A DNA stretch of 64,000 nt, taken from assembly GCA_965178125.1 (NCBI GenBank), contig OZ237773.1:248001-312000 (forward strand), given 5' to 3'. Source of the DNA: Bilabrum cf. latius (taxonomy: Eukaryota). Positions 35,801-64,000 of the stretch are shown in pieces. A program made the position numbers and the translations under genes. Numbering within the stretch: position 1 is the stretch's first letter; every line of letters starts with the position of its first letter. The notes beneath the pieces were generated by a model. It had not been told where the DNA came from and did not search any database. It worked only from the letters and a program-made list of their open reading frames with translations.

Positions 35801-38800
35801 GGCGCCAGCGGATGCGGAGGCGTCCACAACGTGTCATCATCTCCAGCTGCGGATGACACGAGAATCCAAGGCTACAGCCAATCCTCAGGCATTGCATACC
35901 CTTGGCGGATGATTCTTGACACTGCTTCATCAGAAATCTATGCCACGCTATTAGGGGCGTCTCCATCTGTGGTATCCCATGCCCTGACAGCCCATGCAAT
36001 TTCAGGCAAGTCTATGCGCAATTGCTACTTGGCTGGTCCATCCTGAGATCGGATGGTACCTGTCGTCAGCCAGTCACACCGAGCATCCACATGCGTCATT
36101 GTGCCAAAGTCCGCAGCAACTCCCAGAGAGTGCACCTGGGCGATGGACGGCAGCCCCTACCCGCCGCCGCATGACAAGCCATGAAGCGCCGATCCGACTT
36201 CCTATCCTGCCCCAATCACCTCTGACATCCACGCAGTCTCATTCAGCGTGCGCGTGTACGTCTGTGTCCAGCCCACAAGCTGACCGGCTGCTGGCACGTT
36301 CGGGGCATCCGACTCCACCGTGGACAGGCGGACCAGACTGCACCTCATGCGGCCATCGGCGGCGCACCAGTCCTGCCCCCCTTGCAGCGAGACCCACGAT
36401 CCCATGGATCCCAGCTGCCGGTGCCGTAGCAGCAGACGGGCAGCGACATCCTCCGCCTATGCCACGTCTGCCGATGCGTCCGGCCGGCAGCTCACCGCAG
36501 ATGCCACCTGTCCATGGACCGATGCATCCATGGATAGTCCGGGCCACCGGTCCGTCACGTTGCAAGGCAGCACCAGGGTCACCACCACCTCGGGGACCGG
36601 CTGGGCTGCCTGCAGCTCGGGGTTGTCCAGCACGAGGTCAGGGGCCTGTCCGCTGAGGATGAAGCTCCTGTCCACGCTCGGCATAGCCACCGCCTGCACC
36701 ACCTCGCTTGTGCCCTGCCCGGCGCCATGCCCGCTCGATGTGGTCAGCAGCTCGTGCGCCACATCCACCCATGCATCCCATCGGCCCACCCGCGGCCTGT
36801 CTGCCACCCGCCATCGCACCACAGTGGGAGGCACCACGGCCAGCAGATCCGTCTCCGTGGCATCCTCCAGCACCTGCGAGAAGCCGTCGCCCGTGATCCA
36901 CCGGACCTCGAAACGCAGATACGCGGCGCCGCCTCGATGCAGGGCGTCCGATGCATCATCCCGTCTGCCCATGGCCAGTCCTACGCCGCGGAAGGACGTG
37001 CACCACGTGCCGGACAGACCGCACTCACGCAAGTCTCTGCTCTTCGTAGCATTCACCAGCACCATGCCGTCTGCCGGGACAGGCAGGCGATCATCAGCGG
37101 ATGCGCGATCGGCCACAAGCCGAGGATACTGCAGGCCTGCGGGCCATCGGGACACCGCGGTAGACCGGGACACCGCCGCCAGTCTCACGTATGACAGCAC
37201 CTTGCTGGCCTGTCGAGCGTCCAGTCGGGATGCATTGGGACTCCAGGCTGACTGATTGCCGTCCTGTGTGCCCACCTGTAACAATCCCGCGAATGGCGAT
37301 CGACTGTGCATGCTCACGGCAGGTGCCGGCACCATCTCCAGGACTTGCTTCCCTGGCAGCAGATGACCCACGACATCCTGCCCCACCGGCGGCGGGTCAT
37401 CGCCCGTGGTGTCTGACCACGGGGCCAGCACCACCACGGGCTCCTGGCTGTCGGTAGATGCAGGAGCAGTGATGGTGTGTTGGGTCTGCATAGACAGACC
37501 CTCTAGCGCCTGCTCCCGCATGGCCTCGCGATCCAGCTGCACATGGATGGGCAGCACGTCTGCACGCAACAGCGGCCGTGATCCTGCCGGTGCCCGCATC
37601 ACGTCGTACCTGCCTCCCCACGTACACCTGGCACCCAGCACCACGGACGCCGACGAGCCTATGCCTGCAATCCCCACGAACGGGAACTTGATCCGAGCCA
37701 GAGCACGCCTTGCAGGAAGAACAGCCACCGTGCTGCCCACAGTCCGCAGCTCCTCTCGAGCGGCAGCCAGGCCTGCAGGTCCAGGTCCTAGACGGGCCTC
37801 ATCCCACGCCCCGGCGGCATCCTCGGCATCCAGTGCCACGTGGGATAATGAACCGCCCAGGATACTGCCATTCATTGTGCCGTGGCCTGGATCAACCCAG
37901 TCAGCTTGACCACGCCACGTCACATTGCCCACCAGTCTTGGCGACTGCAAGCTTCCCGACGCTGCGGCATCGGCGGCGTTACCTGTCTTCCAGGGAGCCC
38001 ATGCCTCGACCTGCAGCGTGCATGATATGTCCATGGAGCTCCTGGACAGGCGCGATGCGGGGATCCCAGGCACCTCCAGCACCACCTCCGGCGGCGGCTG
38101 CAGAGGCTGCACTCCGTCCTCGGATGATGACGTGCTGGGCAGGGCAGAGGGCCAGGATGGCAGTGATGCCGCATCGCTGGGCATGGGATCCAGGAAGGGC
38201 AGACCTGTCACAGGGACGTCCTGTCCGCTCCTCCCTGCCGATGCCTAGCTGATGAGCGGCGCCAGCGGATGCGGAGGCGTCCACAACGTGGCATCATCTC
38301 CAGCTGCGGATGACACGAGAATCCAAGGCTACAGCCAATCCTCAGGCATTGCATATCCTTCCCGGATGATTCTTGACACTGCTTCATCAGAAATCTATGC
38401 CACGCTATTAGGGGCTTCTCCATCGGTGGTATCCCATGCCCTGACAGCCCAAGCAACCACAGTAGAATCAACACGGAGCAACGGCCGTGATCCTGCCGGT
38501 GCCCGCATCACGTCGTACCTGCCTCCCCACGTGCACGAAGCACCCAGCACTACGGAGTTACCTGCAGCAGAACCCAAGATACCCACGAACGGAAAGCGCA
38601 TCCTAGCCAAAGCACGCGCGGCAGGCAATTGAGCAGTTGCATTCGCAGCTCCCTGCGTTTGCCGACGGGCCACTCGCAGTCCGTCACTCCCCGGGCCTAA
38701 AGCATCCTTGGACCACGCTCCCTGCGATACCTCCTCCTCTATGCGTAAAATCTATTCCCTTGGCGTGATGATGCTACCGTTGATGCTTGCATCATTTTGA

Positions 38801-41800
38801 GATGGATTCGACCACTCCAACGTGCCGCTCCAAGTTGAGTTGCCCACCAATCGAGGGGCCTGCGTTGTATCATCAGCATCCGCATCGACGCTTATCACCC
38901 AAGGAGCCCACGCCTCAACCTGCAGCGTGCATGACACAGTTGGTGAGTATGTGCGCAAGTGGTGGGCGGATATACCGTGCACCTCCAGCACCACCTCCGG
39001 CGGCGGCTGCAGTGGCTGCACTCCGTCCTCGGATGATGACGTGCTGGGCAGGGCGCAGGGCCAGGACGGCACCGATACCGAGCCATCTAGTACTATCTAT
39101 GTGAATGGCAGCACGGCGGAGCTCGTTGGCCCCGTGTATTCCCGCTTGATGATTGGAGCCAGCGGGTGGGGCGGGTACCACACAGCCTCATCACCTGTGT
39201 GCACTGCGCTGGCAAGTCGCCAAGGCATAAGCCATCTCGTTGGGCTATCATACCCTTCGGCAATCAGCCTCTGCTTGACTATTTCGCCCAGCTCCACTTC
39301 TGATGAGTGTCCAATCATCGAGCTGTAACTGATAGACGCGCTGTCCCAGGCCATTATCGCCCAAGCCACCACAGGTGTCCTCACTCGCAGTCGCTGCACC
39401 TCTGCGAACTGCTCCGATGGACTAGGCCACTGGCATTGGGCACTCACATCTGCCTCCTAGCCAAGGGGAAGCGTGGCCCCCAGCAGCACTCGAGATGCTC
39501 CATAGGCGACTTGCGGCTCGATTCCGGGAAATATAATGGTTCCATCAGCACCTGATCTAGCGCACGTAGCACCTTTAAGCTATGCATTGGCTGCTGCCGT
39601 AGACGACGCAGTGAGGAGCCCACTCGCCAGCAGCCCGCTGTTTGGTTGCTGGTTTGTTAGTCGCACTGTGCACGGGATGTCGGCCTTCTCAACCGCTAGA
39701 TCAAATTCCCCTGCTGGGCCAGAGGCATCAGAAAGAAGCGCCACGTGCAACGAGGGTGCTGCATGCGATGCGTTGCCTGCCCTTGACAGAGGCACATCCC
39801 CGCAGCTGCTTCCTACTGTAGTCTCGACTACATCAAGCTATGAACTGCCACTTACAGTTGCAGGTAAGATCATGCCTGAAGGGCTTGTAGTCCCACTGTC
39901 ATTGCCGGTGTTTAGACCCAAACTGGCCTTCACAGTTGCCACTCGAGCTAGCACCACAACTGGCTCTGAAGAAACTCCTAACGCGCTGCTCGAGCATCCC
40001 ATCGCTAGCCGCACCAATTGACCCATGCCAGATAGCAGCCCAAAGGGACGGACGTCGACCAGCCCCGTTGTCAGTCCCGGGGCATAGTTTCGGCTGGAGT
40101 CAACAGGTAGGATTGCAGCCTAGCCGTTCGTCGACAAACCCTGTGTCGCTGCAACAGAGCATGAGACGCCATATCTCTGGCTCTCGGGACCTCCCAGGGG
40201 AATGGAGAAGGCATCCAATAGTGCTGCAACCAGAATAGGGTCCTGCGCTTCCAGGCCAGGAAGGAACGGTGTGGCAGCCTATAGCACGCCAGCCTCAGTG
40301 TCGGCCGTCTATAATACGAATTGCGTCTCCAATCGCCGCATGCCTGAGGCAAAGGGCCGCAGCTACCGCCAGGCGCTGTCGGGCATCTGCATGGCTGATA
40401 CGTTGACGGTGATCGATGCACTTGGCTGAGATATAGCTAGGTGTCTCAGCCATGGTAGCAGTCCTGGCGAATCCACGGCCTCCATGCCGAAATCCTCCGG
40501 TCCAAATACTGTGTCAAGCACACAGCCATCACATGCTGTCAGGGCTGCACGCCCACCGGCACATGAACGCGACTGCCACAACAAGTCTGCGTCCGATAGC
40601 CCAACTTCCTGTAGACCAACGCACGGTGTACTAGTGGATGTGTTGCTATCGTCGACAGCAGCAGCAGGATCGGGATAATATAAGACAGATGCAGTCTCTG
40701 ATTGTAGCCCAAGTCCAAAAAGCCGTCCCAATCGAGACTGTGATGGCGACCGGACGTCCATTGACACGGCAGCACCTGCCCTGCACCTACTGTCTTCAAT
40801 CAGCAAATCCTCAACCACAGTAGGAGCGTAAGATGCGTCGGATGAACGCATTCGGGATATAGATAACGCCCCGCCTTGTCCGGCTAGAACCATACCCCCT
40901 GAGGAGTTCAACTGCTCAGCCACGAGACAGTTGCCCATGGCCAGTCCTCGCACTTCCAACCGAGCCATGCTATCTGCCATCACGCACCCGCCCCGACCCC
41001 ATGGGAACCTAAATACCCTTCCGTGCGAAAAAGAACAGGTGCCCCTAGGTCTGCACTGGGACGTGTTCAAGCTTAGTGCTGAGGATGCCGCTAGCAGTCC
41101 ACCACCAGGCAGGATCTACTGAAGGTCCAGCGGTGCTAACGGCTGGGTTGGAGCTGTTGCAGGGGAAGTGTCTGCTTCAGTAATAACGAAATTGCCAGCA
41201 AGCATTGCGTCGGGACTGTATCCGCCCCCCAGCACTATGCCATCGTGGAAAGCAGCCGGCCCGGCTATGACTGCTTCGGCCTGCTCCCCAATGTGCATCC
41301 ATGCCCCGCCCATGCTGCTGGTCCTACACCCGCTAAGCCTCGCATTCGGCCCAAGCTGCATGCTTGAGCGCACAGACGCGAGACACCCGCCACCAAACTA
41401 CCCATCTCCGGGCGCCTGCTGCAAGACCCCGCCATGAGCCCTAAATGCCCCGCAACCGTGAATGGTCCCTCCATCCCGAACCACTGACAATCCGCTATCG
41501 TCATCTGCCAGAGCCACGCACCCACCGTACCCATCCCATGCTAGCCCAGAACTAATCTTTGCCCCCGCAATTGTTAAACTAGACCTTGACGATAGCACCA
41601 GTCCGCCTGCGCCACCAGATGTCCCCCTCTCTAGCAAGACCCCGTCCAGCAGCATCACGCTGGCACCTCGTGAGAACAATCCCCCCCCTCCTGAAAACGA
41701 TGCAGACCGCGTGCCCGGCCTTACTGCCACAACGGATCGTTGGATACTTGACCCAGCCCGGATAATCACGGCGACCAGTGGCTTGGTGGGATCGATGTCG

Positions 41801-44800
41801 GCCTCTGGAGTTGCGGTGGTCTTGTAGTTGCTGGATGCGAGGTTCGTCCACTCCTCAACGCTCGGGTGCTGAGAGTTAGAACCCCTGGATGTGCCCTATA
41901 CAAGCGATGACACCTGAAGCGCCAGGGTACAGGATAGTCTGGAAAGAGCAGTCTACAGCCGTACTGCAAACTGCATCCCTAAATCCGGATCCATAGTGCT
42001 GTTGGTGCCATTGAGACGGGTCGAGACGTTGGCAGTTAAACGGGTTTCATATCCTGTGCTTCTCTCGTTCTGTACCCTACAATAGTTGTCAGTGGCTGGA
42101 TCCCAGCACACTGCCGCTGCTTGCATCGCTGTTTGTGCCAGGATCTCTGCCGGTAGCGCTGTGGTCCCCTCTTGATCTAGTTGCGTCCACCAGGACCCGT
42201 TGAGGAACTGCAGGCACGCATCGGTACCAGGGATGAATGCCTATTCGGTGGTTGCCTTCGAGGTAGTACCATTCTAGGGCTGGCTTGTGTCTTCGTTTGC
42301 TTCTATCGGAAAAACGTCCTCGAACGAGATGTGGTGCTGCAGCTCCTCGCGCACGTAGGGCCCAGACCCACCCAACCCATCAGCTGACAGGTAGTTGCTG
42401 CTGCGACGAGGCTATCCAAAGGTTTGCGCTTTCTTGACCAGCTCTGCCATCTCTGAGAATTTGTCGTGGTCCACCCACTTGGACAGCATTCCTACCTGCA
42501 ACCATTTGTCAGCTGTGGTGCGCCCCGTCAGCTTGACGGCTGCGATGGCACCTCCTCTGGCAGGCACCACAGGAGTGCTGCCATAGTCTACCTCTACAAG
42601 ACCCACACCGGCATTTTTTATGCTTGACAGTTGGTGATAATTGGCTCCTGCTCCGTTCAGGTGGCTCGCATCCATGCTCACAAAGGCATTTGAGGCAGCT
42701 GCGAGAAGCAGCGCCCCTCCCATCCTGGCGCCGAGCACCTAAGCGGCAGGAGCAGACCCCTGCAAACTGCCGGGCAGCAGCACTGCTTGTGGTTGGAAGC
42801 CACAATTGGGTAGCCCGTGTGCCCACGGTGAGTCGCTCCCATTGAATGCATCCATCAGCGGAGGCACACCGCTGGTTGCTACCTGATCCCAAGGCAGGCA
42901 AGGGTAGGTCTCGCCCGACTGCAAGGGCTCCGGGCACACTACATGGCTCCGGTCCTAGGGCGTTGCAGCATCCGTGCAGGCCAGTCTGCCTACGAACGCA
43001 TGCATGATTTTAGAGCCTTCCACTTGGATGCTGGATTGGGGCACAGGTCGCTGGAGAGAGTCGATGGTGGGACCCGGACCCATGCCCCAGCCGTTCGATA
43101 TCACCACGCCTCTACTGCTGCTGTTGAGAGGACTCTAACTGGACTGCATCAGCCCGGTGATTGCATCCACCACACGCAGTGCTAGCCCACCTTGCGCTCC
43201 CAGGGCCCCAGCAACATCGTCAATTCCCACCGTTGCGTTGCTTAGAGTTCCGCTCCCCAGTGGCCCAACGGCCAGGTGTTGGCTTGCAATTGCTGGTGGC
43301 ATGCTCTCTGCCTGCAAACGTGCTGGAAATTGTAAAACTCCTACAGCCCCACCAGATGCCCCGGCGTACGTCCCGTCCACAACGGACCGCTGCAGCTATA
43401 CCGAAGCCACTGTCCCGTCCAGGCCCACAACCCCCACGGACCCACCGATGGTGCCAGCAGCGCAACGGCTCAGCGTGCTGTCCTGGATCTGCACGGATAG
43501 AGTGGGTCGGATAGAGACTGAGCTGGCAAGCGTCCATGGAAAGTTCGACGATCGAGCAGCGGCAATGCAGCCCCCCGCTCCGCCCGGTGCCACGCAACCC
43601 TCCACCTGTGAGCTGCGGAGCCTCACGGCAATGCTTTGGGTTGACGCGGCGGAGGACTGCACAGAAGCCAGGCCCCCAGAGCCCAGCAGACTGACCGTGC
43701 CCCATACTTGACTGGAGCTTACAGTGATCCGCACGCTAGAAGTGGCATGGGCCGGGTCAGCGTGCCCCAGATAGGATGATTGGGCGATTGTGCCTCCGTC
43801 CCACATGGCAGGCAGGGGATTGTAGACCTGCATGTTGGACACGCTAGCATCCAGACTACGCGCTGCCATTCTCATGGACATAATGCCACCAGATGCATGC
43901 ATCCGGGTTGCTCTGGTCCTGGCCAACTAGACCAGCAGAATGGCTGTCTCATTCAGCTGCTGGTGCTGGTCCAAAGGTAGCGAGGGGGCTGCAGCAGTTA
44001 CACAGGCAGACAGGACCGGCAATTGATGCTACCGTCCATAGGCAAGCGGGTTGACCGGATCGCTTAGGTCTGTTGCAGTATCGCTCAATCTGGATACGGC
44101 GGCTTGCGCTCCTTTGGTTGCCATGACGGCTGCTCTCTCGCACTCGCGGATCTCCTTTAGCTGCTAAACATCAAGGGGCTGGAGCGATGCGCCCGTGCTC
44201 CCCATGGCATCCCATATGATTGATCGGCTGGTATCACATGGCAGCAGCGAACTACTGGCGATACACGGTGCGCGATCTGAACCTAGTGCGCCTTGAACTT
44301 CGACAGTGGAATCGCCTTGAGCAATAGACCTGTAGACCACTACTGCTTGTTGCTCCAGTGCCTAAAGAGTGCCTGGCAGATCCACGCTTTCCCTTGCACG
44401 AATCATGGCCACGCTGCTGATTGAGACTCGGGACGGGACCTAAACGGAAGAATCGCGGATGGGCTACAGCGGAAGCCGAGTGCTCAACCCACTCAGCACG
44501 CGGCCAGCTCTGGCAAGAGTCGGCCACCATGCAGCAGATGCATCCGCAGAGAACACACTACCATCATGCAATGAATCTCTTCCCGCAGATCGCGCCCAGG
44601 CAGCGTCATCATGGAACGCCAGCAGGCGTGGGGGTAGAAGGCCCCGACCAAACGTTATGTTGCCGGTACCCGAGGCTAAGAATAGAGACTCACCTACGTC
44701 TGCCACTCGCCATTCAGCTTCAATTCCTCCAACTTCGGGAATGTCGACGTCCGTAACATCTATAATGGATACGCTGTCCACGTCGTGCACTCGCAGAAGG

Positions 44801-47800
44801 CTTCCTTGCTCATCGCCACATGGACCAGACAGCACTTCCACGCCCGATGCGTTGCCGCCTGCAGCTGCAACTGCTGTGCGCATGCCACTTCGTACCCTGC
44901 ACCAAGCAGGTACCTGAGAATGAATGGATAGGATCTGCCTCAAGCTTGTTGTCACTGCCCCTGAAACGGACACAGCGGCACCCACCGACTCGGTCTGCAC
45001 CCCTGCACCACTCATCTCTCGCTGTAGTCCACTGGAATCCATCAGTACCACCCTGGCTACATCCACGCTCGCTTCCTCTGCTTCATAGAATCCAACCGGA
45101 TTGTACACGCCGATTAGGGATCCAGAAATCTGCGGAGTCCTGCCACGCATCGGTACGAGCCCAGGCCCACCCCCAGTAGTTGTGTTGTAGCTACGCAGGT
45201 GGTCCAGGGCCAGAGGGTTGGGGCCTGGCGGGGTTTCTAGCAGCAGGTCCTGCGCCAAATCGTGGCACGTACCATACATTGCGCTACAACCGACAAGAAT
45301 CGCCTCGCGCATGGCCTATCCAACGGCCGCATCCCCCCTTTGGCCCAGAGCAGGCAGACCTGTCCGTGCACCCACAGCCACCACATCCGTTACCTCCACA
45401 CGTGAGACGCGCCGCAGCGCCAGCACCTGCATCGGCTGGGCCATCCAGGAGGCGTCAAGCACCAACGATGACTCCAGTCGCACCCGCGATGCTCCATCCA
45501 CCACAGCCACGGCAGGAGCTGCCCGCGTGGTCAGTGCTTGTAGGAGTGCCTTTCGGGCTTTTTGATGGCCTAGAGATGCCGTGCTAATACCCAGGCGACG
45601 AACTGGCAGGGAGGCCCTGAGTGGTTCGTGTATCTTTCGGACCTCGAATGGAAGCTGACCGGACGATGCTGCCAACAGTGCGTCTCTTTCCATGGCCACG
45701 CAGGTGGGCAGCACTCTCACGTCCTGCATGACAACGTCGAGCGAGGCCTCCTAATCAGTGGTACGGTCCTCTGTGGCCGGGCATGACCTACTACCGTCCG
45801 CGGCCACCTCGCAATTCCTGCCAGTGAGTAGTAGAGCGGCGCCTGTCGTGCCCTGGCTCTGCCTTATCATGTACTGTGACAGGTTGGCCGGGTTTAGGTC
45901 AAACCTAGCCGCGGTGCGGGCGGTGCAGCTGACAATCCGCAACTTGGAAGTGGCATTGGAGCTTGGGTCAATGACGAGTGGCGAAATGCCACGGCGAATA
46001 TCGGAGCTTCCATTCACTGGGTCCACCCGCACGAAATCAATGCCCACAACCCGCACATGGGTCGCGGCGGCCAGCTCTAGCCTGAGAGCGTCTGGTCCCT
46101 CCCACAGCATGGGAGTGTTGTCGAAGGCAAATTCCCACCTGGGATCTGTAGACGTATTGTACGAGGACTGAAAGCCGTACATATCCTCGAGACTGCTCGA
46201 TGAGGCCACAGGACCGCATACATCAACCGGATGCCCCGAAGCATTGACCGAAGCAGGAGGAGCAGACCTAGCCAGAGCGTCTTGGAGAGGGGAGGCACCC
46301 AGCATGCGAGTCACCCAATCCAATTTACGGATCGGCTATCTAGTCTCCGTTGCATACGATTGATGCATCTCATTCGATGTCCATGCGTCTAGGTACTCGT
46401 CAGTGCATCCAATGCAGCCCCCGGTAGTCGCGATCACGTATCGAACCATGCTCCTCCACGCCCCCACCCCCATCACGTCTACTTCCTTGATTGGGAGATG
46501 CAGGCTGCTCACGTTGGCAGTCTCTGCAGATGTGCCGTCATTCAGGATTGTGCGTATCTGCGATCCGTTAGTATGCGTTGAGAGAGCGATGCTGGAGGCA
46601 TTCGGCGGAAGGATTACGACCCGCAGCATTGCACCGTCCGATCTGCCCGTATTGTACCTGTCTCGGGCGAACACAGTTGCTGCTGCCTAGATGCTTGAGC
46701 ACACAGGCATGACATGCAGCAGAGCCGCCGCATCGTTGTACAGTGCTACTACTGTATCATGGAGACTGGCCGTAGTCACGTTCTGGCCCTGCTCGATGGC
46801 CTGTTGCTCAAAGTACTCCAGGGGGTCCCGGCTGCAAGGGTCCTGTCCATGTGGGTCCTTTGCCACCGCTGGGTCCACGAAGAAGGTACGTTGAATGTCG
46901 GTAGCAAATGATTCCCTCTAGAAATGGTCTGGTTGTTGAACCAACTTGGTGAAGTCGATGGAAGCCTGAGCATCAGTTGCACCCTCAATGCACCTGAACC
47001 GGTTGCTGGCTGTCCTGTCCACCATCACGCAAGTGGTCAACTTGCCCGCAGCCACTGCTACCGCGGCCGAAGAGCCAGAGTCCATGGAACCGACGTTCCC
47101 GTTCCAGCATGGGAATGCCTGCCTGATAGCCAGCAGATGGGCGAGGGTGGCTGCGTCGGGGGTTGAAGCTGCGAAGCATACGGGACATCCGGCTTCGGTG
47201 ACCGCGCATACGTGAGAGTCGCTGCAGTCCAAGAATCTGCTAGGGGTAGATGGAATTCCATCCGTACCGCCTGGCTGCAGAATTACTGGCACCTGAACCC
47301 TACTTTCCCCCGTTCCCGCGCATCTCACAGCCCCCACATCATCTATGGAGCACACCACGCCATCTGTCACGCACATACCAGACACAGAGGCGGTTGGCGG
47401 CACACTGGCCCGGTAGCCCATGGCAGCTGCATGCGTCGTTGCAGCTCCAGTATCCTTGGACCAGCAGTAGATGGCGGACCTGTTGGTGGCCGAAGCTGCG
47501 CAGCAGATGGTGGACCCGCAGTCGACTGCCATCCCTTGCATGGGTATTGAAGGGCTGGTTGGCTCAAAAGGTACGTTTTGGGTCATACCTAGAGCACCGG
47601 CGGATGTACCAAAGCAGGTGACGTTCTACGACCCTGCATCAAGGTTTATTGCTGGAAGATGTAGCTCTAGTGTGGCAGAAGCTGCCGCAACCACGCTAGC
47701 CTGGTCCACCACGACTGCACATGCAACTCTATCGGCAGCCACAGCGATAGGTCGCATGGGTCCACGGCCACCCGGCATGGCTACAGTAGGCGACAGGAGG

Positions 47801-49635
47801 GCTGGATGAATCTTGACGTCCCCAGTTGCGATGGGGCTGCACTCTAGATTGAAGCCGGCCTCTGCGTTCAGCACGTGGCACTGGCTGTCGCTGCCAGTGA
47901 CTAGGGCGAGGAGTCCGTGAGGGGTAAAGCTGGACGGAGGGGTGATGAAGCTATTTGCGGGAGCGAGAGCCTCGAGCCACGAGCTCCTGGGACGCACTGT
48001 CCTCTGTAGTGCCGCCAGCACCAGGCCACCGGATGCGGAGGCCCCGAACGCCAGCTCTGGTGCAATGCCCAGGTGCTAGATATTTGCAGTGGCGTCCGAT
48101 GCCACCACTTTGACAGGAAAGTGCACGCCAATACCTGTCTTTAGGATGGACCGCGAGTCCAAATTGCTGCCCCAGCACGCGATGGATGACCTAGTGGTGG
48201 TAGCACAGGTTGACGCTGACCCAGCTGATATCTGCGGGATGTTTTCAGGATCAGTTCAAAGAAAGAGAAGGGCCAAACGCCATCAAGTACAAATGAGCGA
48301 GTCCCAGTGAAATCCGATACGTATCCGGGTGTCCGTGTGGCTGTTGAGGTAAAGCGAACTAACCTGTGTAAAGTCGCTGTCTATTCGGCGAGGTGCCTGG
48401 TAGGCTGTATCGAGTCCCCAGCACTCGATTCTACCGTCACGTGATCTGGCGCAAGATGACTCGTGTCCCCTCGATATCTGGACGTAGTCAGTGCCTCCGG
48501 GGGCTGTGCACTAGCCCTTGTTGTTGTTCTGACCATGTGTGGCGCCACAACGCACGGTCCCACTTCGTGTCACCCCGCACACGCACGTATTCCCTCTGTA
48601 GACATCTCCCGAGTACAAAGCCACCCCAACGTAATCGCTACCGGTAGGGGGTTCTGGAAGACTAAACCCTGCACAACTGATGCTGCCACTAGCCCGAACA
48701 GCACAATATCTTCCGTATGAAACATCCACCTGCGACGCACAAGAATCTCATTGAGCGAAACGGAACTACTTTTAAGTGTGTATGTCACTTGCAAATTTAT
48801 GTGCCACAAGTCCATATGGTTGGCCTAAGAGCCTCTGCAGTGACTGGTGCAAGGAGCACTGAGCTGCTTCCAGTGGGAATGATTGGTTTTGCTTGGCATA
48901 ATTGCTACTCACATCTATGAAGGGGCCTGCGTCGTAAGCTGCGTTAGTCGTGCAGCGTATACCACCAGACACCTCTAGCCCACAACGAATGTGGGGACCC
49001 GGTTGTACCTGTGAGGTTGATCGATCAGAAAAAGAGGCTGCGTGCCAGCGTCCCGGTGTATGCAGATCCCTATATCGCATCCGGATCCACGGATGCGCAC
49101 GCTTTGCACTGCACACTCACCCTAGAGTACTTGGTCCCATCCAATGGGAGGCCTCTGCTTTTACACAGAGGATCTCCTTTTGTCGTGGTTACACAGTATT
49201 CGTTACCATCGGTCCCTACCTGATAGATCGACGACTTGTAGGTGTTAAACAACTAGGGATGGTCTGGGGCTAAGGTTCAAATTTTCTACCGACACACATT
49301 TACGATTCTTTAGAAAATTTACACCTGTCACGTGCCACAGTGCATTTGTGGGAGGTTTTGTGAGTCTCACCTGCACGTAGTCGCCTGTTATGTGCTTCCG
49401 CCCTCCAACTCCCCAGCACTACAGATCTCCAGAACGCTCGATCAAGCACGGCGATCCGGTTCCCGCGGACAACTGCATGAAGTTTAAGCAGTATCAAGCA
49501 TGCACCAGGCCTGAGAGATTAGGGTTCGAACAAGCGGACCAATTTCACGTACTTTCTCACCGTGGTATCGGCTATCACAGCGCTAATTCCTAGCTATATA
49601 ACAACAAACGCATACACGCGTGCTATCTTTACCAT
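29827..49635 (-). CDS. Giant (~6,400 aa) cell-surface protein: signal peptide, RCC1/BLIP-II-like repeats, GG-containing beta-helix-like repeats, internal 819-aa duplication, Cys-rich region, multi-pass TM C-terminus; dozens of in-frame TAG
   Basis: About 30 minus-strand ORFs from 29827 to 48021 share one frame, and the gaps I read contain only TAG, no TAA or TGA. Terminal exon 48231-29827 (6,135 codons) ends TGA. Upstream phase-0 exons: 48729-48364, 49008-48913, 49252-49121, 49472-49371; probable ATG at 49635, first donor uncertain. Motifs ISAGSASTCA..IACWGSN, CAEGHTGPLCAVC, FDC..YLKRDLRVEC, YGFLYKGY..WWEAIGMVRK. Confidence 0.85.
33564..38455. repeat. In-frame internal tandem duplication, period 2,457 bp (819 codons); a more diverged partial copy lies at ~38480-39450
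   Basis: ORFs 34000..35754 and 36457..38211 are near-identical with scattered substitutions. The third copy shares LPSTSSSEDGVQPLQPPPEVVLEV, CTLQVEAWAPW and PPHPLAP. Confidence 0.93.
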
Positions 49636-49869
49636 CTTGGCGGGAGAAGTGGTGCAAATGGCTGTCGAATCCCTGACGTGTTGGCAGCGACCGGCGTACT
49701 TTTGCTCGACCAGGTAGTCTACTCCTGCAAAAAAAAGAAGGAATTGTACCGGCTCATGACTTGTTACACGTAATTTTAACAATGAGCTTGCCTTTTTTGC
49801 TCTGCCAAAAATATGTACGAGCTGCATAGAGCCTTGAACGGGCCGCCGGCAACCAACATTTCAGAGGTT

Positions 49870-54266: not shown

Positions 54267-57023
54267 ATGACCGCAACTATATCCGATGCATATGATCCGG
54301 GTATATGTACGGTTATGGCTCGGCTACCGTGGCAAAAACGAATGTTGATGGCTTGTAAACAACCTCAACCCGACAAACTTGCAGAAGCCATCAACAGTGT
54401 CGGTCCTGAGAACGTGTGCCCATCACTGCTCGAGGAATGCTTCAAGCTGGCGTGCTCGATGAATCGACCACACATATTGGCATACTTGCAGGAGACCATG
54501 CCACCAGTTGGTCCAGCAGTTGTGGAAGAGTATCTTGAGTAGATGTGCTCGTCGAAGTACCCACCGTGGGATGCGATCCGATAGCTAGTTGTGAGCAAAG
54601 CGCACGGTTGCGATTTATTTAATGCTGCATGCAAATTTGCCATAGAGCGCAGCAATGCGGATGTCTTGGACATGCTGCTGTCTGAGAAAGATTGTTTTGC
54701 CAGCGTAAAACCATATGTTGTCCTGGCTTGGGCAGGGGATCGCTTGGGCCCCGAGAATGCCATACAGGCCGTCATCATTAGACAATTTCGGGATAGTCTG
54801 CGCGCTCCCACTCCAACTTTGTCCGAGCTGTTCAGATAGGCGTGCTCTGAAGGTCATGACGACTTGCTCGTCGAGCTTCTGCAGCTGCAGAACGAGGCGG
54901 GGGACTTTATGTTTCATCCTGGGCCCAAGCAGCTGTAGGAAGTATGCCAAAAAGGCCACTACAAGTGCGCGCTTGTGCTTCTCGCCCTCACCGGTGAATC
55001 TGCAATCGATGTGTCGGCCGACAACTGGCTGGCCTTCAGGCTTGCGGTCCTGCATCGCCGAGTGATGGTGGTGAAGGCACTGATGACGATCGGCAGGCAC
55101 CCGGTCGATGATCAGCCGTTTCTCGTCTAGCGGGAGCTTCTTCGGAACAGAGAACGAGCCAGAGCAGCCGAGGCTGCAGCCGCTCGAGTTCGAGCTAACG
55201 CTGAGGCTGAACGTAGATTGGCAAGGCTGCCAGCTGGCACCACTGCCACTGGGGCAGGAAGCGATAGGCTGCCAGCTGGCACCACTGCCACTGGGGCAGG
55301 AAGCGATAGGCTGCCAGCTGGCACCACTGCCACTGGGGCAGGAAGCGATAGGCTGCCAGCTGGCACCACCAGTGCAGCACGGATGCCCGCCAGGAAGCGG
55401 CCGCTGGTCCTACGCGGAAACCTATCGAAGACTGTCAATGCGAAGCCGAGCTACACAAAGTCATGTGCGAGTGGCATGTCCATTGCTACAGAGAGACATG
55501 GTGTGGGTATGCAGCGGGCCTCCGCTTCCAGCAAGCGCCAAGTCACCCGATCATTGCAAGTCCCCAGTCGCAGTCCTGGACCACGCCAAGCATAGCCAGG
55601 CTCAGGTCGATCAGTGAAGCTGGGGACCAGACCCGTGGAGACAGAGATGAAACTGCCCGTACTTGCAAGCTATCGAACCAGCACGGCGGTGAGGCGAAAC
55701 ACCAACGCGGCCAGCCGGGCCAGCCGGGCCAGCCGGGTCAAGCAGACCAAGCAGACCAAGCGGATTATCATAGCCACGCAAGCCACGCAGGCCAAGCAGA
55801 CTAAGCGGACTAAGCAGACCAAGCACGCAAAGCGGGTCAAGCAGGTCAAGCAGACCAAGCAGGCCTAGCAAGCAACAAAGGCCAAGCAAGCAACGAAGGC
55901 CACGCTTGCCAAGCGGACCAAGCTTGTCAAGCAGACCTCGGAGGCCACTCAGGCAACTTCGGACTAGCCCGAGCAGATGCCATCTACTTGCAAGCAGAAA
56001 CCCAGCATCGTGCCGCGCCAAGGGGCAAAGCAAGGAACCGGCCGGCGCAGCCAGGACAGTATCGGCCCTTCTCCTCGTGGAGTGGTTGAAGAAAACAAGA
56101 GCACTACGTAGCAGTAGCACCAGGACGTATCAGCAGGCAAGCTTCGATAGCAAGGAGACAACGGGCAAGTCGCACAGAGCTCGCCGCCCGGCCCCCGCCG
56201 TCGGAGTGGGGCTGAGTTAAGAGGAGCACATAGACGCACGCCAGAAGTACAGAAACAAGTATCACAGGCCCGGCAAAGCACAGAGAGGAAGGTGCAGCTA
56301 CCGTAGATACCGCTTGACGGTGAAGAGAGGATCCTCAAAGAGGGCGCCGCCATTGCAAACATGGTCTCGGCTGCGATCGCACGAATTCCGGTTTCGGCGC
56401 GGAGGCCTCTTCGCTGCATCCCACCGTACTGCGTGTATGAAGCCGTGGGCAAGGCCGCCTCCATGCGTCTGCCTCCGTACCGATACTGGCTGTACCGAGT
56501 GGAGAACTTCACACGAAGACAAAAAGCCATTCTCAGGCATCGCATGGTGTGGGACCCCTGGAAGAGGGTGCAAGAGCACAGCGGTATGCTCTAGGAATGC
56601 TGCCCAACCAATGACGCCCTCAAGCTGTCCAAGCGACTCAGACTGAGCCACAGGCCGTGTCAGGCGCAGTACATCCGGGTAGTCATGGACGTAGCGCGAT
56701 CGTTTGGAAATGCAGATTGCGTGGATGTGCTGCAGCGGCAGTGGAGAAGGGCCGTGGCAGTGGCACGCAGGCCGAGTAGGCGGCATTTGGTCGCTTGGAG
56801 GCAGGCCCTGTGCGCGCACAGAGATGCCAGCTTGCTGGGCAGGTGCTGCGAGGAGGGCAGGCCGCTGGAGCTGGGGAAGCGGCTGAGGCTGGGCAAGCTT
56901 GCGTGCAGTGCGGGGCGGCTTGTGGAGCTGGACGCGATGGCGAGGTAGGGCGGTCATGGCGAGTGCAGGGAGGTGCTTCACGCATTCATGCACTCTGGGT
57001 GTCTGGCTGCAGCAGGTCGGTGA
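54267..57023 (+). CDS. Ankyrin-like repeat protein, copy B2 (~918 aa) with an expanded low-complexity middle, multiple in-frame TAG
   Basis: Continuous frame through ORFs 54219, 54591, 55218, 55614, 56361 and 56685, with only TAG between them; ends TGA 57021-57023. Confidence 0.75.
55224..55369 (+). repeat. Coding 42-bp tandem repeat, ~3.5 copies (RLPAGTTATGAGSD); 9-bp KQT/RAS-type repeats follow at ~55710-55940
   Basis: Direct inspection of the sequence and of ORFs 55218 and 55614. Confidence 0.9.
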
Positions 57024-59114: not shown

Positions 59115-59255
59115 AATTGACGCACATTGCTTTATCTGTGGCCCCAGTAAGCGGCTGCACATGTGCTGTGCACCAAGTGTGTGCAACTGCACGGAACGGC
59201 AGTGCCTTATTGGCGAGAAAATATACAACTAAAGCACGACACATAGTTCAATAGA

Positions 59256-60683
59256 ATGGCGTCAGTCTACGATGGCTTTGTGGTGTACTGTAGTAAGGGT
59301 GAGCTGGACAAGGTAGCATAGGTCGTTGCTAGCACAAGTGCTCGCGAACTGGAGGCCAGCCGTTTTCGCCTGGTATGTCGCGGATTCGTCAAAGCCTGCA
59401 ACAAAGGCCACTCGCTAGTCGTATCTGCATTAGCAACATACATGAATGTCATTCTGCCAGCTCATCCAAATGTCGTGCAAAGTGCGTTCGAACAGGCGTG
59501 CCAGCGAGGGCGAGCGAATGTCGTGAATCAACTGCTGGAGATAGACGCATGCCGCAAAGCATTGTCGATCTCACGCAACCAGAGTGCATGCCTAAAGGTT
59601 GCTTGCTCTGGCGGGTATAGCGAAGTACTGGACATGCTGCTGGCTCAAGAAGACATGCGCGAAGTTGCTGCGACCACGCTGCACGAATGCCTCTGCATCG
59701 CATGCCACCACGGGCGACTGTCCATCGTAAAGCAACTCATGTCTCTTGAAGGCGCCCAATACGTAAACATCCACGCCAAAAACGGCCTTGCGCTGTATCG
59801 GGCCGTCCGGCGGAATCACGAGGACGTGGTCCGCTGGCTGCTCGCACACGAGGCCAGACCTCCCGCGCAGCTGCCCACGGACGACCCCAGGACATTGCTT
59901 GGCATGGAAAAGGAAGGGTGCATGTCGGTTTTGTACCTATTTCGGTGGTTGCGATTTTGGCGGGCGGTATGCCCAGCGCAGTTGCTCGCTGATATCGTAG
60001 CAGCGAGAGCGCACCGTGTCAGCAGCCTGCAGCTGCCAGCAATTGAGCACTATTGCTTATGGTAGCACTGCAGGCCTATATATTTGACGCAGCACGCCAT
60101 TATATGCCGCGATGGGGCACTACTGGCTCGTATGAATGCGGCCACCATCGACAGATTCATACACCTGGGGGTAGACCGGCAAGTTTGGCGGTTCATCGTA
60201 TCGCTCGTTGGCATACGGCGCCCCGCATTTGATTCTACAATACCTCTTCAACTCGCGTACTACCATTGCTTGTATCCGTCCAGGCAGCCGATTGGATGGA
60301 TGCTGGATGGGCTTTGGCGAAGCGGACGGGAGCGCATGCCTTCCCGGCCAGACTATGATTCGATCAAGGAGACAGCTGGTATTGATCACGCGTACGATTT
60401 TTACGAGTAGTACAATGAGAATCAGGGAAGGAAGTCGCGGGTGCTGCAGTAGAGGCAGGCCCTGTGCGCGCACAGAGATGCCAGCCTGCTGGGCAGGTGC
60501 TGCGTGGAGGGCAGGCCGCTGGAGCTGGGGAAGCGGCTGAGGCTGGGCAAGCTTGCGTGCAGTGCGGGGAGGATGGTGGAGCTGGACGTGATGGCGAGGA
60601 GAGGCGGGCATGGCGAGTGCAGGGAGGCGGTGCAGCTAGAGCTGTGGAAGATGCATGCCAAGGTCCCGATGCATTTACATTGA
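59256..60683 (+). CDS. Ankyrin-repeat protein, divergent family member C (475 aa), 4 in-frame TAG
   Basis: FVKACNKGH, FEQACQRGRANVVNQLL, CLKVACSGGYSEVLDMLL, CLCIACHHGRLSIVKQLM and NIHAKNGLALYRAVRRNHEDVVRWLL, followed by the shared C-terminal cassette; ends TGA 60681-60683. Confidence 0.8.
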
Positions 60684-61227: not shown

Positions 61228-64000
61228 TCAATCTTCCTCGTCATCCAGTTCAATCTCGTTCTCGTCCTCCGCCGCCTGCTTTCCGGACTGCGCTTTTTCG
61301 TTTCCATCTTCTGCGGCACCTGCTTCTTCTCTTCTGCTTCTCTTCACGTACCGAAGATCTTCCGCAGTAGCAGCATCCGCGTTCGACGTGGCGCTGGTGC
61401 CAACTGCTCCGGCCTACAAGGATTGTCCACCGTCGTGTGCATCGCTGCTCCCATCCGCTTCCGCGGGCACAGAACTGGCAGTGTCCCTGCCCCGCTTCTG
61501 TCCCAGAGCCGGCTCCGCTGGCGCCGCCCCGTCCCCTCCGTCCCCCTGCCCTTGCCCCTGCCCCTGCCCCATGGCCCTGACCTTCTCCCTGAGTTCCGGC
61601 TCCGAGTACCTCACCTGGGAGAACTGCGCGCCCATGGCCCTCCTCACGTGCTGCATCTCCGCGTACGTGTCGGGGTTCCCGTGCCTCCGCTCGAACTCGC
61701 GCCAAGAGTCCCAGTAGGTCCGGTGGGACGCCTCGCTGGGGTCGGCGAACTGAGCGCCGTGCCTCCACAGCGCCCTCGCGCGGTCGATCTCGCCCAGGGA
61801 AGCCTCCAGCACCGCGAACCGCATGGTGAGCGCGCGAGCATCCCCGTCCGGCAGGCCCTCGTCCGCCATCGCGATTTCCAAAACCGCACGCAACCTCGGT
61901 GCCCCGAACACCTCCTGGCCCCTCCGGACCCAGCGGTCGTACACCACGCGCTTGTCCCCGGTTGCAACCGCTCCCGCGGCCCTCTGGTACACCGCCATCT
62001 CCCTCCGGACCTGCCCGTGCCTCTTTTCCAGCTCGGCAAACACCAGCCACAGGGGCAGGGCGCTGGCGAGGCCTTGTTCCCCGCCCTCTCCCGCGGCAGC
62101 CACGGCCTCCTCGCAGATTTCCCTGGCCCTCTCCAGCTTGTCCAGGCGACCCCCAGGAGCACCCAGCACGTCGATCGAGGCACCAGCCGCTGCGGCCACG
62201 GCGGGCAACGACGACGAAGATGACGAAGATGATGATGAGGACGATGATGATGACGAAGCAGCACCGGTACCTGCCCCCCCGGCGCCCTTGGTGTGGCGCT
62301 TCACGAACGCCCCGATGTAAGCCAGCCACAGGTCCCTCTGGTGCGGCCAGCCGAACGCCGCCACCCCCCTCTCATACACACGGAAGGACTCCTCGAACTC
62401 GTTGTGCGCCTGCAGATACTCTGCGTGCTGCAGCACCATGGCCGCCGTGGCCACTCCCAGTCGAAGGCACAGCGCATGCGCCGCCTTGACCTCATCCACA
62501 GTGCCCAGGGACTCCTCCAGGTCGAGGAACAGCGCCCACACGCGGGGGTTCAGGTGCAGCCGGTCTCGCGCCGAGGTTTTGCCACCCCCGTGCAGTCGCC
62601 GGAGAACCGCCGCCGAAGGTTCCCTGACGGCCTCGGCGGCCACCGCCCGGGCCTCCTCCAGTCTCTCCTCCCTCACCTCCAGCTCTGCCAGGGAACAATG
62701 CACGGCGGCCAACTGGTCCACCCTCCTGAACGATACCTCAATGGCGCGCCGGAGCACCACCCTCGCCGATTCCGAGTCCCCGTTCCGCTCGTAGAGCCCT
62801 GCAAACGCGATCCACAGCTCTTCCAGCTTGCCAACCGCCTTGCCCGGGTCCACCGCCTGCGTGGCCTCCTGAAACGCAAGCACTGCCTGGTCCGGCCGTC
62901 CCTGCTTCTCGTACAGCTGTGCCCTGTCCAGCCACTCCTACACGCTCTGGGGGTTCTGCCTCAGCCGCACGGAGGACAGCAGCAGCGGCCGCCTGGCCAC
63001 GAGGACCTCGAGCCGCTCCATCCTGAGGGCGAGGTCCTCCTTCCCGGCCTCCAGCTGGGCCAGCTCTTTGCCCTCGATGTCGCTGGCCCCGCGGTCACCA
63101 GGCGAGTCCCCGCCCGCTGATGCCGATGAGGACGATGCAGACGCACCAGCTGCCTTGTTGGAGCTGTCCTATTCGTCCTCGTCCTCGTCCTCGTCCTCGT
63201 CGTCATCGGACACCTCTCCCGCAGCGAGCAGCAGGGTCTCCTCAAACCGCACGTAACTATCGTACACGGTCGCGAAATCCCTCACCGTCATGACGGCTTC
63301 GATCCCCTCCTCGTACACGTCTCTCGCCCGCTCGAACCTGCCCTGCCTCGAGTGCCAGTCCGCCAGCGCGCACCACAGCCGGCCCACCTCGTCCGAGAAC
63401 CTCCGGATGCCCGAGCGGAGCACCTGCTCCACATTCAGCGAGCGAACCTTCCCCGCGTGCTCCGACACGGTCGCGCACAGCCGCAGCCACAGCTCGTGGT
63501 GGGACCGCCCCCGCTTGCTGACGAAGGAGGGGTCGTCCACAGCGCGCGCCAGCACGAGGGCGCCCTCGTCCACGCGGCCAAACCGGAAGTAGTACTCGGC
63601 CAGCCGCTCGAGCTGCTTGGGGGCGAACTCGACGAACCTTCGCAGCAGCAGGGCACCCGACCTTGGGGGGACAGCCGGCTGCCGCCTCCAGTCGATGCCC
63701 AGGTGCCTGCGGACCGCCCGCTCGTCCCGTCTCAGTTGTTCCCTGGCCTCGGTGTCTTGCGCGGAGGCGCCCTTGGCTGCGGCGGAGGAGGACGATGAAG
63801 TTCCGCTGGATCGCGCGGCGCCGGTGCCGAGAAGTTCGCCGCGCTCGTCGACAGCACCCTCATCCTCGTCGTGGTCGTCATCGCCGCGCTCCGGTGGCAG
63901 CTCAAGGGACGGTACCTCGTAGGAACCGTCCTCCAGCATGCGAGGGGGGTCGGATGTTTCTACGAAGCGCACGACCGCTGGCCAGACGTGGTCGTGCTGG
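61228..64000 (-). CDS. SYF1: Pre-mRNA splicing factor SYF1/XAB2 (HAT repeats), 5'-truncated by the window; 3 in-frame TAG
   Basis: RSGIRRFSDEVGRLWCALAD...FERARDVYEEG...TVRDFATVYDSY, LRQNPQSV*EW, LFLDLEESLG, FEESFRVYERGV, KLERAREICEEA, LGEIDRARA, FERRHGNPDTYAEM and acidic tail ENEIELDDEED. TAG at 63169, 62938 and 61414; ends TGA (61228-61230) immediately followed by TAA. Confidence 0.93.

What the first reader, a model, noticed from the sequence alone, without database searches (positions are those of the whole stretch)
48511..48513. The reassigned UAG most likely encodes glutamine
Seen: (1) TAG sits at the conserved Q of the RCC1/BLIP-II-type GxNxxGQ motif (GQNNNKG*CTAP, 48511). (2) Paralogs align TAG to CAG: KQL*EVCQKG (54936) vs KQLQDVCQKG (52838) and TILQDVCQKG (57855); DQPFLV* (55128) vs DQSYYVQ (53045). 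(3) TAG clusters with Gln codons in low-complexity tracts: P*M*I*QPQ (13657-13680), T*Q*HQ (56109-56123), AAQQ* (32581), NE*E**KR (53363-53374), PAL*QAL (~8958). Inference: UAG = Gln fits best; Leu, Tyr and Trp fit the poly-Q contexts poorly.
Basis: partly seen in the sequence, partly recalled or inferred. Interest (0 to 1): 0.88.

Follow-up and report, generated by a model that had tools for sequence, protein, structure and literature searches.

The report
Reassigned UAG codon, probably glutamine
In this GC-rich eukaryotic DNA the stop codon UAG is read as an amino acid, most probably glutamine, which adds a likely new lineage to the few organisms that changed UAG alone while keeping UAA and UGA as stops.

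Summary
The quoted sequences are all there. TAG is a sense codon: reading it through raises the longest open frames from 952 to 6142, 2309 and 1330 codons. There are 123 in-frame TAG in 12 frames. These frames end in TGA (11) or TAA (1) and hold no in-frame TAA. The TAG at 48511-48513 lies in an exon (48364-48726) of a giant gene. It is unchanged in spliced, RNA-like contigs.

Glutamine is the best reading, on about 20 informative sites only:
- GH32 residue 31 is TAG here, CAG in a 76%-identical environmental relative and Q in 10 of 14 nearest homologues.
- A TAG of that relative falls on Q of heparanase and N of three bacterial homologues.
- Receiver and ankyrin sites are polar.
- Summed likelihood puts Q first, then R (-8.7 nats) and E (-9.1). 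Without the strongest site Q is still first, at 0.78.

Against: one GH32 TAG lies on a conserved aromatic column, strictly aligned paralogues favour W and R, and Gln is not significantly enriched near TAG. No tRNA(CUA) could be sought because no genome is held. My confidence in Gln is about 0.8.

The parts
48511..48513 (-). The TAG codon of the finding (GQNNNKG-TAG-CTAP)
   Evidence: unchanged in the spliced contigs of runs X5 and X6 (0 other letters over 48364-48726)
48364..48726 (-). Exon holding that TAG; weakly RCC1-like repeats
   Evidence: joints 48231/48364 and 48726/48910 with GT..AG ends on the minus strand; the frame runs on into the giant frame; RCC1_2 21.9 bits against cut-off 22
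29827..48231 (-). Main exon of a gene of about 6400 codons; 57 in-frame TAG in the frame 29827-48255, 60 in my spliced model; ends in TGA
48910..49723 (-). Four short 5' exons (48910-49006, 49119-49217, 49369-49472, 49561-49723) with the likely start MVKIARV...; two further TAG, one in the hydrophobic signal-like stretch
14530..14532 (+). GH32 residue 31, TAG; CAG in relative L001, Q in 10 of 14 nearest homologues that cover the site
14668..14670 (+). GH32 residue 77, TAG; GAG (Glu) in L001; the 75%-identical fragment P0131 ends exactly here
15370..15372 (+). GH32 residue 311, TAG on a conserved aromatic column (Y 88, F 19, L 10, W 9 of 136): evidence against Gln
62938..62940 (-). SYF1 TAG (SV-TAG-EW) on a variable column (H 93, E 9, A 4, G 3, Q 2 ... 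of 120)
6651..6653 (+). TAG in the receiver domain; E, N, H, E, E in five printed PDB alignments
9229..9231 (+). TAG in an ankyrin repeat (GASA-TAG-VPD) at the N of the GADVNA consensus
54936..54938 (+). TAG of paralogue B against CAG at 52838-52840 (A) and 57855-57857 (C)
36157..36159 (-). TAG in one copy of the 98%-identical internal repeat (GGG-TAG-GLPS); the other copy has TGG at 33700-33702
60450..60452 (+). TAG of paralogue D (LQ-TAG-RQAL) where paralogue B and fragment 51122-51988 have TGG in BLASTP, and A, B and C have TGG in MAFFT
14065..14067 (+). TAA that ends the ankyrin-kinase frame; AT-rich sequence and a tRNA-Ala gene follow

Best explanation
The window is nuclear DNA of a GC-rich eukaryote with introns, in which UAG is no longer a stop. 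It is read as an ordinary sense codon, most probably a third glutamine codon, while UGA (the usual one) and UAA still end genes.

Shown:
- TAG is in frame, at 0.3 to 1.5% of codons, in conserved and lineage-specific genes.
- It stays TAG in spliced RNA-like contigs, so it is not edited away.
- An environmental relative shares the trait.

Inferred:
- The residue is Gln.
- It is delivered by a tRNA-Gln whose anticodon changed from CUG to CUA. Such a tRNA pairs with UAG but not UAA, as argued for other UAG-only codes (passages of PMC5304391).
- The release factor eRF1 has lost recognition of UAG.

Neither the tRNA nor eRF1 lies in the window.
For: TAG is sense:
- Longest stop-free frames are 952, 921 and 668 codons by the standard code, and 6142, 2309 and 1330 with TAG read through. 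Reading TAA through changes nothing among the longest.
- There are 123 TAG in 12 frames, whose last codons are TGA in 11 and TAA in 1.
- Contigs of runs X5 and X6 skip six GT..AG-bounded segments and match 44512-48231 and 48364-48726 with 0 other letters.

The relative L001:
- It is 76% identical in GH32.
- It has 2 + 2 in-frame TAG and a TAA stop.

The meaning is Gln:
- GH32 residue 31 is TAG here, CAG in L001, Q in the 75%-identical fragment P0131 and Q in 10 of 14 nearest homologues that cover the site.
- Fixed-tree likelihood (LG+G4, 75 sequences) over 4 GH32 sites gives Q 0, L -3.4, E -4.4, A -4.9, Y -8.8, W -15.8 nats.
- L001's NR-TAG-TLVGG aligns to RQ of human heparanase and to HN in 3 of 3 bacterial GH79-like proteins.
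- The receiver-domain TAG aligns to E, N, H, E, E.
- The ankyrin TAG aligns to the N of GADVNA.
- Paralogue B has TAG where A and C have CAG. Paralogue D has CAG where A, B and C have TAG.
- The sum over all sites puts Q first, R at -8.7 and E at -9.1 nats. Without GH32 residue 31 Q is still first, with posterior 0.78 under a flat prior.

Gln is also one of only two meanings reported for UAG-only nuclear codes (abstract of PMC11687900; passages of PMC5304391).
Against: - GH32 residue 311 (TAG) lies on an aromatic column (Y 88, F 19, L 10, W 9 of 136, no Q). Q scores -4.5 nats there. True residues of this protein score -4 or worse at only 2% of sites.
- L001's GP-TAG-ILFSS lies on a V/I/T column and on Leu (CTC) of the window. 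Q scores -4.7 there.
- In the strictly filtered paralogue set (13 events, about 11 independent columns: T, M, R, W, Y, R, Q, I, A, R, W) Trp and Arg score above Gln. This includes TAG against TGG in a 98%-identical repeat and TAG against TAT between paralogues A and C.
- TAG-to-CAG and TAG-to-TGG are both single transitions, so close paralogues partly reflect mutation rather than meaning.
- The likely signal peptide has TAG in its hydrophobic core (VYAFVVI-TAG-LGISAVIA).
- With 3 sites, the GH32 likelihood method recovers true Gln in only 60% of trials.
- The SYF1 site is uninformative.
- Much of the margin comes from one site.
- No tRNA with a CUA anticodon is in the window or in L001.
Confidence: 0.8

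Rival explanations
1. UAG encodes glutamate, as UAR does in peritrich ciliates and Blastocrithidia and UAG does in one oligohymenophorean ciliate. A tRNA-Glu with a CUA anticodon would deliver it.
For: - GH32 residue 77 is GAG (Glu) in the 76%-identical relative, and Glu is the likeliest residue there.
- The receiver-domain site is E in 3 of 5 printed alignments.
- Paralogue D has TAG where A, B and C have GAA.
- TAG stands in acidic runs (DEDEDEDE-TAG-D in SYF1, NE-TAG-E-TAG-TAG-KR).
Against: - No Glu at GH32 residue 31 among 107 homologues with a residue there. Glu scores -5.7 nats at that site and -4.4 over the four GH32 sites.
- The GH79 site is Q, N, N, N.
- Three CAG partners among paralogues against one GAA.
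- Glu near TAG is 1.2x, whereas Glu codons show 1.5 to 2.5x self-clustering.
- The sum is -9.1 nats against Gln.
Confidence: 0.05
2. UAG encodes a hydrophobic or aromatic residue. Leu is one option, as in the rhizarian exLh and three phyllopharyngean ciliate genomes. Tyr or Trp are the others, by a mutated tRNA-Tyr or tRNA-Trp.
For: - GH32 residue 311 lies on an aromatic column.
- L001's TAG lies on Leu of the window and on a V/I column.
- TAG stands against TGG in two independent paralogue columns and against TAT in one.
- TAG lies in the hydrophobic core of the likely signal peptide.
- Leu is a documented meaning of UAG-only codes.
Against: - GH32 likelihood: L -3.4, Y -8.8, W -15.8 nats.
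- At GH32 residue 31 the close relatives have Gln.
- The receiver, ankyrin and GH79 sites are polar.
- No TTG or CTN partner for a window TAG in the strict paralogue set (0 of 13 events).
- Among the six most enriched neighbours of TAG there is no Tyr or Trp. Tyr and Trp codons show 1.7 to 1.8x self-clustering.
- In the sum, L is -11.2 nats in the strict tally, and Y and W are not among the seven best.
Confidence: 0.07
3. UAG encodes another polar residue (Arg, Lys, Asn or His), which would be without precedent for a nuclear UAG-only code.
For: - Arg stands opposite TAG in three independent paralogue columns (CGA, CGG, AGA/AGG) and scores above Gln in the strict paralogue set.
- Arg is second in the strict total.
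- Asn is the consensus at the ankyrin site and in the bacterial GH79-like proteins.
- His leads the SYF1 column.
Against: - GH32 likelihood: R -7.9, K -7.2, H -7.8, N -9.6 nats.
- All Arg partners differ from TAG by two or three bases. They are one step from CAG, so they fit the common Gln-Arg exchange.
- The sum is -8.7 nats or worse.
Confidence: 0.05
4. UAG has no single meaning: it is read as more than one residue, or as sense in some contexts and stop in others.
For: - The four GH32 sites each prefer a different residue (Q, E, Y, L).
- The base before TAG is A in 30% of cases against 15% for all codons, which hints at a context preference.
Against: - None of the 12 frames ends in TAG.
- There are 57 TAG in one 6142-codon frame.
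- Scatter among a handful of poorly conserved columns is expected. The true residue is the likeliest one at only 50% of the sites of this protein.
Confidence: 0.03

Closest known systems
UAG-only reassignment to Gln with UAA kept as stop: Iotanema spirale (Fornicata), and the ciliates Hartmannula sinica and Trochilia petrani (formally NCBI table 15)
   Same: UAG is sense while UAA and UGA are stops. Gln is the best-fitting residue. The predicted carrier is a tRNA-Gln(CUA) one anticodon step from CUG (passages of PMC5304391; abstract of PMC11687900).
   Different: - In those organisms UAA is the main stop. Here TGA ends 11 of 12 frames.
- This DNA is 55-71% G+C with GT-AG introns.
- Its SYF1 is at most 42% identical to anything in the protein collection, so it is not a close relative of a sequenced organism there.
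- The meaning rests on about 20 sites here, against hundreds in those studies.
Code 6 (UAA and UAG both Gln): many ciliates, hexamitin diplomonads, some ulvophycean green algae, Amoeboaphelidium (the last two recalled, not read here)
   Same: UAG is read as Gln and UGA is the usual stop.
   Different: TAA is not sense here. There is no in-frame TAA in a 6142-codon frame that holds 57 TAG, although CAA is 0.4 times as frequent as CAG there (69 against 171). Reading TAA through does not lengthen the long frames. TAA ends one gene here and one in L001, each followed by AT-rich sequence.
UAG-only reassignment to Leu: the rhizarian exLh and three uncultivated phyllopharyngean ciliates
   Same: Only UAG is changed; UAA and UGA are stops.
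   Different: In exLh, UAG falls on conserved Leu columns. Here Leu scores -3.4 nats on GH32 and -11.2 in the strict sum. No window TAG has a Leu codon opposite it in the strict paralogue set.
TAG-to-Gln recoding in phages (crAss-like phages, 'code 15')
   Same: TAG is read as Gln by a suppressor tRNA (search listing and abstract start of PMC9523058).
   Different: This is cellular, spliced eukaryotic DNA with spliceosome, kinase and glycosidase genes. It is not a phage genome recoded late in infection.

Membership tests
Nuclear code with UAG = Gln, UAA and UGA = stop (table 15 type) | UAG in frame inside genes, including conserved ones | tested here: met
   123 TAG in 12 frames; TAG inside GH32, SYF1 and receiver domains; kept in spliced contigs
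Nuclear code with UAG = Gln, UAA and UGA = stop (table 15 type) | UAA still ends genes and is absent in frame | tested here: met
   No gain among the longest frames from reading TAA through; 0 TAA in the 6142-codon frame; TAA ends the ankyrin-kinase gene and L001's GH79 gene, with AT-rich sequence after it. Only two gene ends.
Nuclear code with UAG = Gln, UAA and UGA = stop (table 15 type) | UAG-aligned columns of conserved proteins led by Gln | tested here: inconclusive
   Gln is first in the summed likelihood, but only one of the five GH32 and SYF1 sites scored by likelihood has Gln as its best residue, and one is a conserved aromatic column
Nuclear code with UAG = Gln, UAA and UGA = stop (table 15 type) | A tRNA with anticodon CUA and tRNA-Gln identity | not testable with these tools
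   The window holds only three tRNA-Ala(CGC) genes and L001 holds none; no genome is held
Nuclear code with UAG = Gln, UAA and UGA = stop (table 15 type) | eRF1 altered so that UAG is not recognised | not testable with these tools
   No eRF1 gene among the frames scanned
Code 6 (UAR = Gln) | UAA used as a sense codon | tested here: not met
UAG = Leu code (rhizarian exLh type) | UAG on conserved Leu columns | tested here: not met
   Leu is best at 1 of 4 GH32 sites and -3.4 nats overall; 0 Leu partners in 13 strict paralogue events; polar partners at the receiver, ankyrin and GH79 sites
RCC1 / BLIP-II-type repeat (for the exon with the TAG of the finding) | Match to the RCC1 repeat profile with the GQ motif in register | tested here: inconclusive
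   RCC1_2 21.9 bits against cut-off 22, on the neighbouring repeat; WD40_RLD 16.6 and 20.4 bits against 150; PDB RCC1 E 0.016; 1 of the 7 repeats I read by eye keeps the Q

The most novel reading that the evidence does not exclude
UAG here is not glutamine. It would be another residue (Arg, Glu or Tyr are the least-bad alternatives), or it would be read in more than one way. That would be a nuclear UAG-only code of a kind not yet described, in a eukaryote lineage with no close sequenced relative and with environmental relatives that share the trait.
Probability: 0.15. Interest if true: 0.85.

Novelty: new member of a known kind. Interest (0 to 1): 0.6.

Why it matters
Nuclear codes in which UAG alone changed meaning while UAA stayed a stop are rare. 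In what I read, only a fornicate, a rhizarian and a few phyllopharyngean ciliates are described. They bear on how the two UAR codons can be uncoupled, which needs a tRNA with anticodon CUA and a release factor that tells UAG from UAA.

A GC-rich, UGA-terminating, intron-bearing eukaryote with the same change would be a further case, probably of independent origin. At least one environmental relative shares it.

There is a practical side. Gene calling on this genome and its relatives with the standard code cuts proteins at every TAG, as the fragments P0127 and P0131 in public protein collections show. Knowing the residue is what makes correct annotation possible.

Tried and rejected
- Whole genome: none is held. 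The genome-wide column tabulation and the search for a tRNA(CUA) could therefore not be done.
- Earlier findings of this scan: nothing by place, words or sequence.
- Protein searches for fragments of close relatives found nothing for residues 1201-2750 of the giant frame or for residues 120-480 of GH32.
- An alignment of GH32 fragments was too gappy for the locus search, so the single protein was used instead.
- SYF1 in genome contigs and viral contigs: no relative.
- Sequencing runs: 7 holders. The one with a 0.27 share of words (X7) proved to be the same sequence at low cover, not a diverged strain. Its pieces inside 40257-51700 have 0 other letters. Its differing pieces lie at 38820-39806, within the internally repeated part of the gene. 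No polymorphism test at TAG was therefore possible. No RNA holder is listed on record; X5 and X6 are called RNA only as a guess by the tool and because their contigs are spliced.
- Methods that use sequence context have no power here:
  - Mean hydropathy of neighbours does not separate residues.
  - A neighbour-composition classifier names the right residue for 20 of 59 test codons, ranks CAG 16th, and puts Gln first for TAG by only 0.5 nats.
  - Regression of codon density on residue density in 60-codon segments is right for 8 of 55 codons.
  - Hydrophobic neighbours at -1 and +1 are the same for TAG, Gln, Glu and Leu.
- ChaC: its TAG codons lie outside the aligned domain, one probably in an intron.
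- The first MAFFT run on 151 GH32 sequences timed out, and one script failed on a text pattern. Both were repeated.
- Supplementary tables of the two papers were not seen.
Full report
WHAT THE WINDOW IS

The 64 kb are 55-71% G+C. They carry eukaryotic genes:
- a long protein ending in a response-regulator receiver domain (3-6932, +);
- a ChaC-like gene (7115-8122, -);
- an ankyrin plus protein-kinase gene (10075-14067, +, with ankyrin exons upstream);
- a GH32 fructosidase (14440-16431, +);
- a tandemly duplicated gene of unknown family;
- a giant gene on the minus strand;
- four paralogues of an ankyrin-like family (52061-60683, +);
- the splicing factor SYF1 (61228-63999, -).

The only RNA genes found are three tRNA-Ala(CGC). 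No whole genome is held. The best SYF1 match in the protein collection is 42% identical, so no close sequenced relative is there.

IS THE OBSERVATION THERE?

All quoted peptides and coordinates are confirmed. The TAG at 48511-48513 is on the minus strand.

Contigs of two runs (X5 and X6) skip six segments whose ends are GT..AG on the minus strand: 48232-48363, 48727-48909, 49007-49118, 49218-49368, 49473-49560 and 49724-49904. A DNA run (X4) reads straight through. The library type of X5 and X6 is not on record; the tool guesses RNA.

I read these contigs as spliced transcripts. Joined in that way, the frame runs from a likely start (MVKIARV...) through the exon 48364-48726 into the 6142-codon frame. 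So the TAG of the finding lies in an exon of the giant gene. The spliced contigs match that exon and 44512-48231 with 0 other letters, so the codon is not edited away.

TAG IS A SENSE CODON; TAA AND TGA ARE STOPS

- With the standard code the longest stop-free frames are 952, 921 and 668 codons.
- With TAG read through they are 6142, 2309, 1330, 1276 and 1158.
- Reading TAA through changes none of the longest.
- Twelve frames hold 123 TAG, against 480 CAG and 175 CAA.
- Eleven frames end in TGA and one in TAA.
- The giant frame has 57 TAG and no TAA, although its CAA is 0.4 times as frequent as its CAG.
- After the one TAA the sequence turns AT-rich and a tRNA gene follows.

A RELATIVE THAT SHARES THE TRAIT

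The HMMER search with GH32 found short fragments that are 75-77% identical. They are cut as a standard-code gene caller would cut them. One (P0131) ends exactly at the window's second TAG. They come from environmental assemblies.

The one metagenome scan returned a 3063-base contig, L001, which is 76% identical over GH32 residues 30-178. It has two in-frame TAG in a GH79-like gene that ends in TAA, and two more in its GH32 gene.

WHICH RESIDUE? HOMOLOGUE COLUMNS

- GH32 residue 31 (TAG-RPIFH). L001 has CAG, P0131 has Q, and 10 of the 14 nearest homologues that cover the site have Q. Among the 150 homologues, 107 have a residue there: Q 29, Y 21, H 16, L 16, F 7, no E.
- GH32 residue 77. L001 has GAG. 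The column is variable (N 47, P 22, D 21, G 14).
- GH32 residue 311. This is an aromatic column (Y 88, F 19, L 10, W 9 of 136). It speaks against Gln.
- GH32 residues 219 and 276 lie in insertions and cannot be aligned.
- L001's own GH32 TAG lies on Leu (CTC) of the window and on a V 64 / I 26 / T 17 column.
- Fixed-tree likelihood (LG+G4, 75 sequences) over these four sites: Q 0, L -3.4, E -4.4, A -4.9, Y -8.8, W -15.8 nats.
- Calibration on the same protein. The true residue is the likeliest at 50% of sites and scores -4 or worse at 2%. Three random Gln sites give Gln in 60% of trials. The method is right more often than not, but it is no proof with so few sites.
- The alignable SYF1 TAG lies on a variable column and decides nothing.
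- L001's GH79 TAG in NR-TAG-TLVGG aligns to the Q of heparanase RQVFFGAG and to N in three of three bacterial GH79-like proteins. Its other TAG aligns to V, R, M, R.
- The receiver-domain TAG aligns to E, N, H, E, E.
- An ankyrin-repeat TAG aligns to the N of GADVNA.

PARALOGUES INSIDE THE WINDOW

For Gln:
- B has TAG where A and C have CAG (local identity 0.94 and 0.81).
- D has CAG where A, B and C have TAG.

Not for Gln:
- TAG against TGG in the 98%-identical internal repeat of the giant gene (36157-36159 against 33700-33702).
- TAG against TGG in paralogue D.
- TAG against TAT between A and C.
- TAG against Arg codons in three columns, and against M, T, I, A.

In the strictly filtered set, Trp and Arg score above Gln. 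With three looser MAFFT columns added, Gln is first. TAG-to-CAG and TAG-to-TGG are both single transitions, so recent copies partly show mutation rather than meaning.

CONTEXT ARGUMENTS

Gln is not significantly enriched near TAG (33 against 25.9 expected, P 0.16). TAG clusters with itself (16 against 5.1, P 8e-5). Four context-based classifiers failed their own calibration, so I give them no weight.

The RCC1 argument is also weak. The profile match is just under threshold and covers the neighbouring repeat. The PDB match has E 0.016. Only one of the seven repeats I read by eye keeps the Q.

SUM

I added the GH32 and SYF1 likelihoods, BLOSUM62 log-odds for the PDB pairs, and the strict paralogue set. 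Gln is first, Arg is at -8.7 nats and Glu at -9.1. Leu, His and Ala are near -11. Tyr and Trp are not among the seven best.

Without GH32 residue 31, Gln is still first, with 0.78 under a flat prior. Arg then has 0.07, Tyr 0.05, Glu 0.03 and Leu 0.02. This tally was made. The three Asn partners found there soften the GH79 term a little.

These numbers assume independent sites and adequate models. About 20 sites carry them, so I put my own confidence in Gln at about 0.8.

MECHANISM

- Shown: UAG is translated through, stays UAG in the transcripts, and is never the last codon of the 12 frames.
- Inferred from what is established for other UAG-only codes (passages of PMC5304391): a tRNA with anticodon CUA, which reads UAG but not UAA. 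It would derive from tRNA-Gln(CUG) by one change. With it goes an eRF1 that no longer recognises UAG.
- Neither gene is in the window.

COMPARISON AND NOVELTY

UAG-only reassignment is described as follows:
- Gln in Iotanema spirale, Hartmannula sinica and Trochilia petrani;
- Leu in the rhizarian exLh and three uncultivated phyllopharyngeans (passages, abstract).

This case fits the Gln type. It differs in three ways: UGA rather than UAA is the usual stop, the composition is G+C-rich, and no close sequenced relative was found.

Two full-text searches listed no such organism outside ciliates, fornicates, rhizarians, trypanosomatids and Amoebophrya. I read only listings and abstract starts for the rest, and no supplements.

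I rate it a new member of a known kind. The Gln meaning is the ordinary outcome of a rare event.

Noticed in passing
window 8294-8366 (+), 14281-14353 (+), 61102-61176 (-): Three tRNA-Ala(CGC) genes with the same Rfam score (64.8 bits) lie between protein genes. They are the only RNA genes found in 64 kb.
   Followed up: partly
window 50334-50442: A stretch of about 100 bases, a diverged copy (91-93% identical) of part of the conserved C-terminal region of the ankyrin-like family, has 5 to 7 times the depth of its surroundings (860 against 120-146 in run X4). At 50370 it is covered by 43 contigs of X4 with many loose ends. The family is probably present in dozens of copies in the genome.
   Followed up: partly
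window 16949-22653 and 22679-28104: A tandem duplication with a period of 5730 bases carries a gene of about 1200 codons with no Pfam match. The first copy is interrupted by a run of N (the window holds 200 N in all).
   Followed up: no
window 33700-38800 (-): The giant gene contains two 819-codon internal repeats that are 97-98% identical, plus a third, diverged copy. All six introns seen lie in the first 1.7 kb of the gene, and the 18.4 kb exon has none.
   Followed up: partly
window, all in-frame TAG: The base just before TAG is A in 33 of 111 cases (30%) against 15% for all codons. C follows TAG in 34 of 111 against 24% overall. This may be a context preference of the reassigned codon.
   Followed up: no
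L001 1-3063: The environmental relative does not share gene order with the window. A PAN-domain GH79-like gene lies upstream of its GH32, where the window has the ankyrin-kinase gene and a tRNA-Ala.
   Followed up: no
window 7115-8122 (-): In the ChaC-like frame the PDB alignment starts at residue 26. The 25 residues before it, which include one TAG, do not align, so an intron probably lies there.
   Followed up: no
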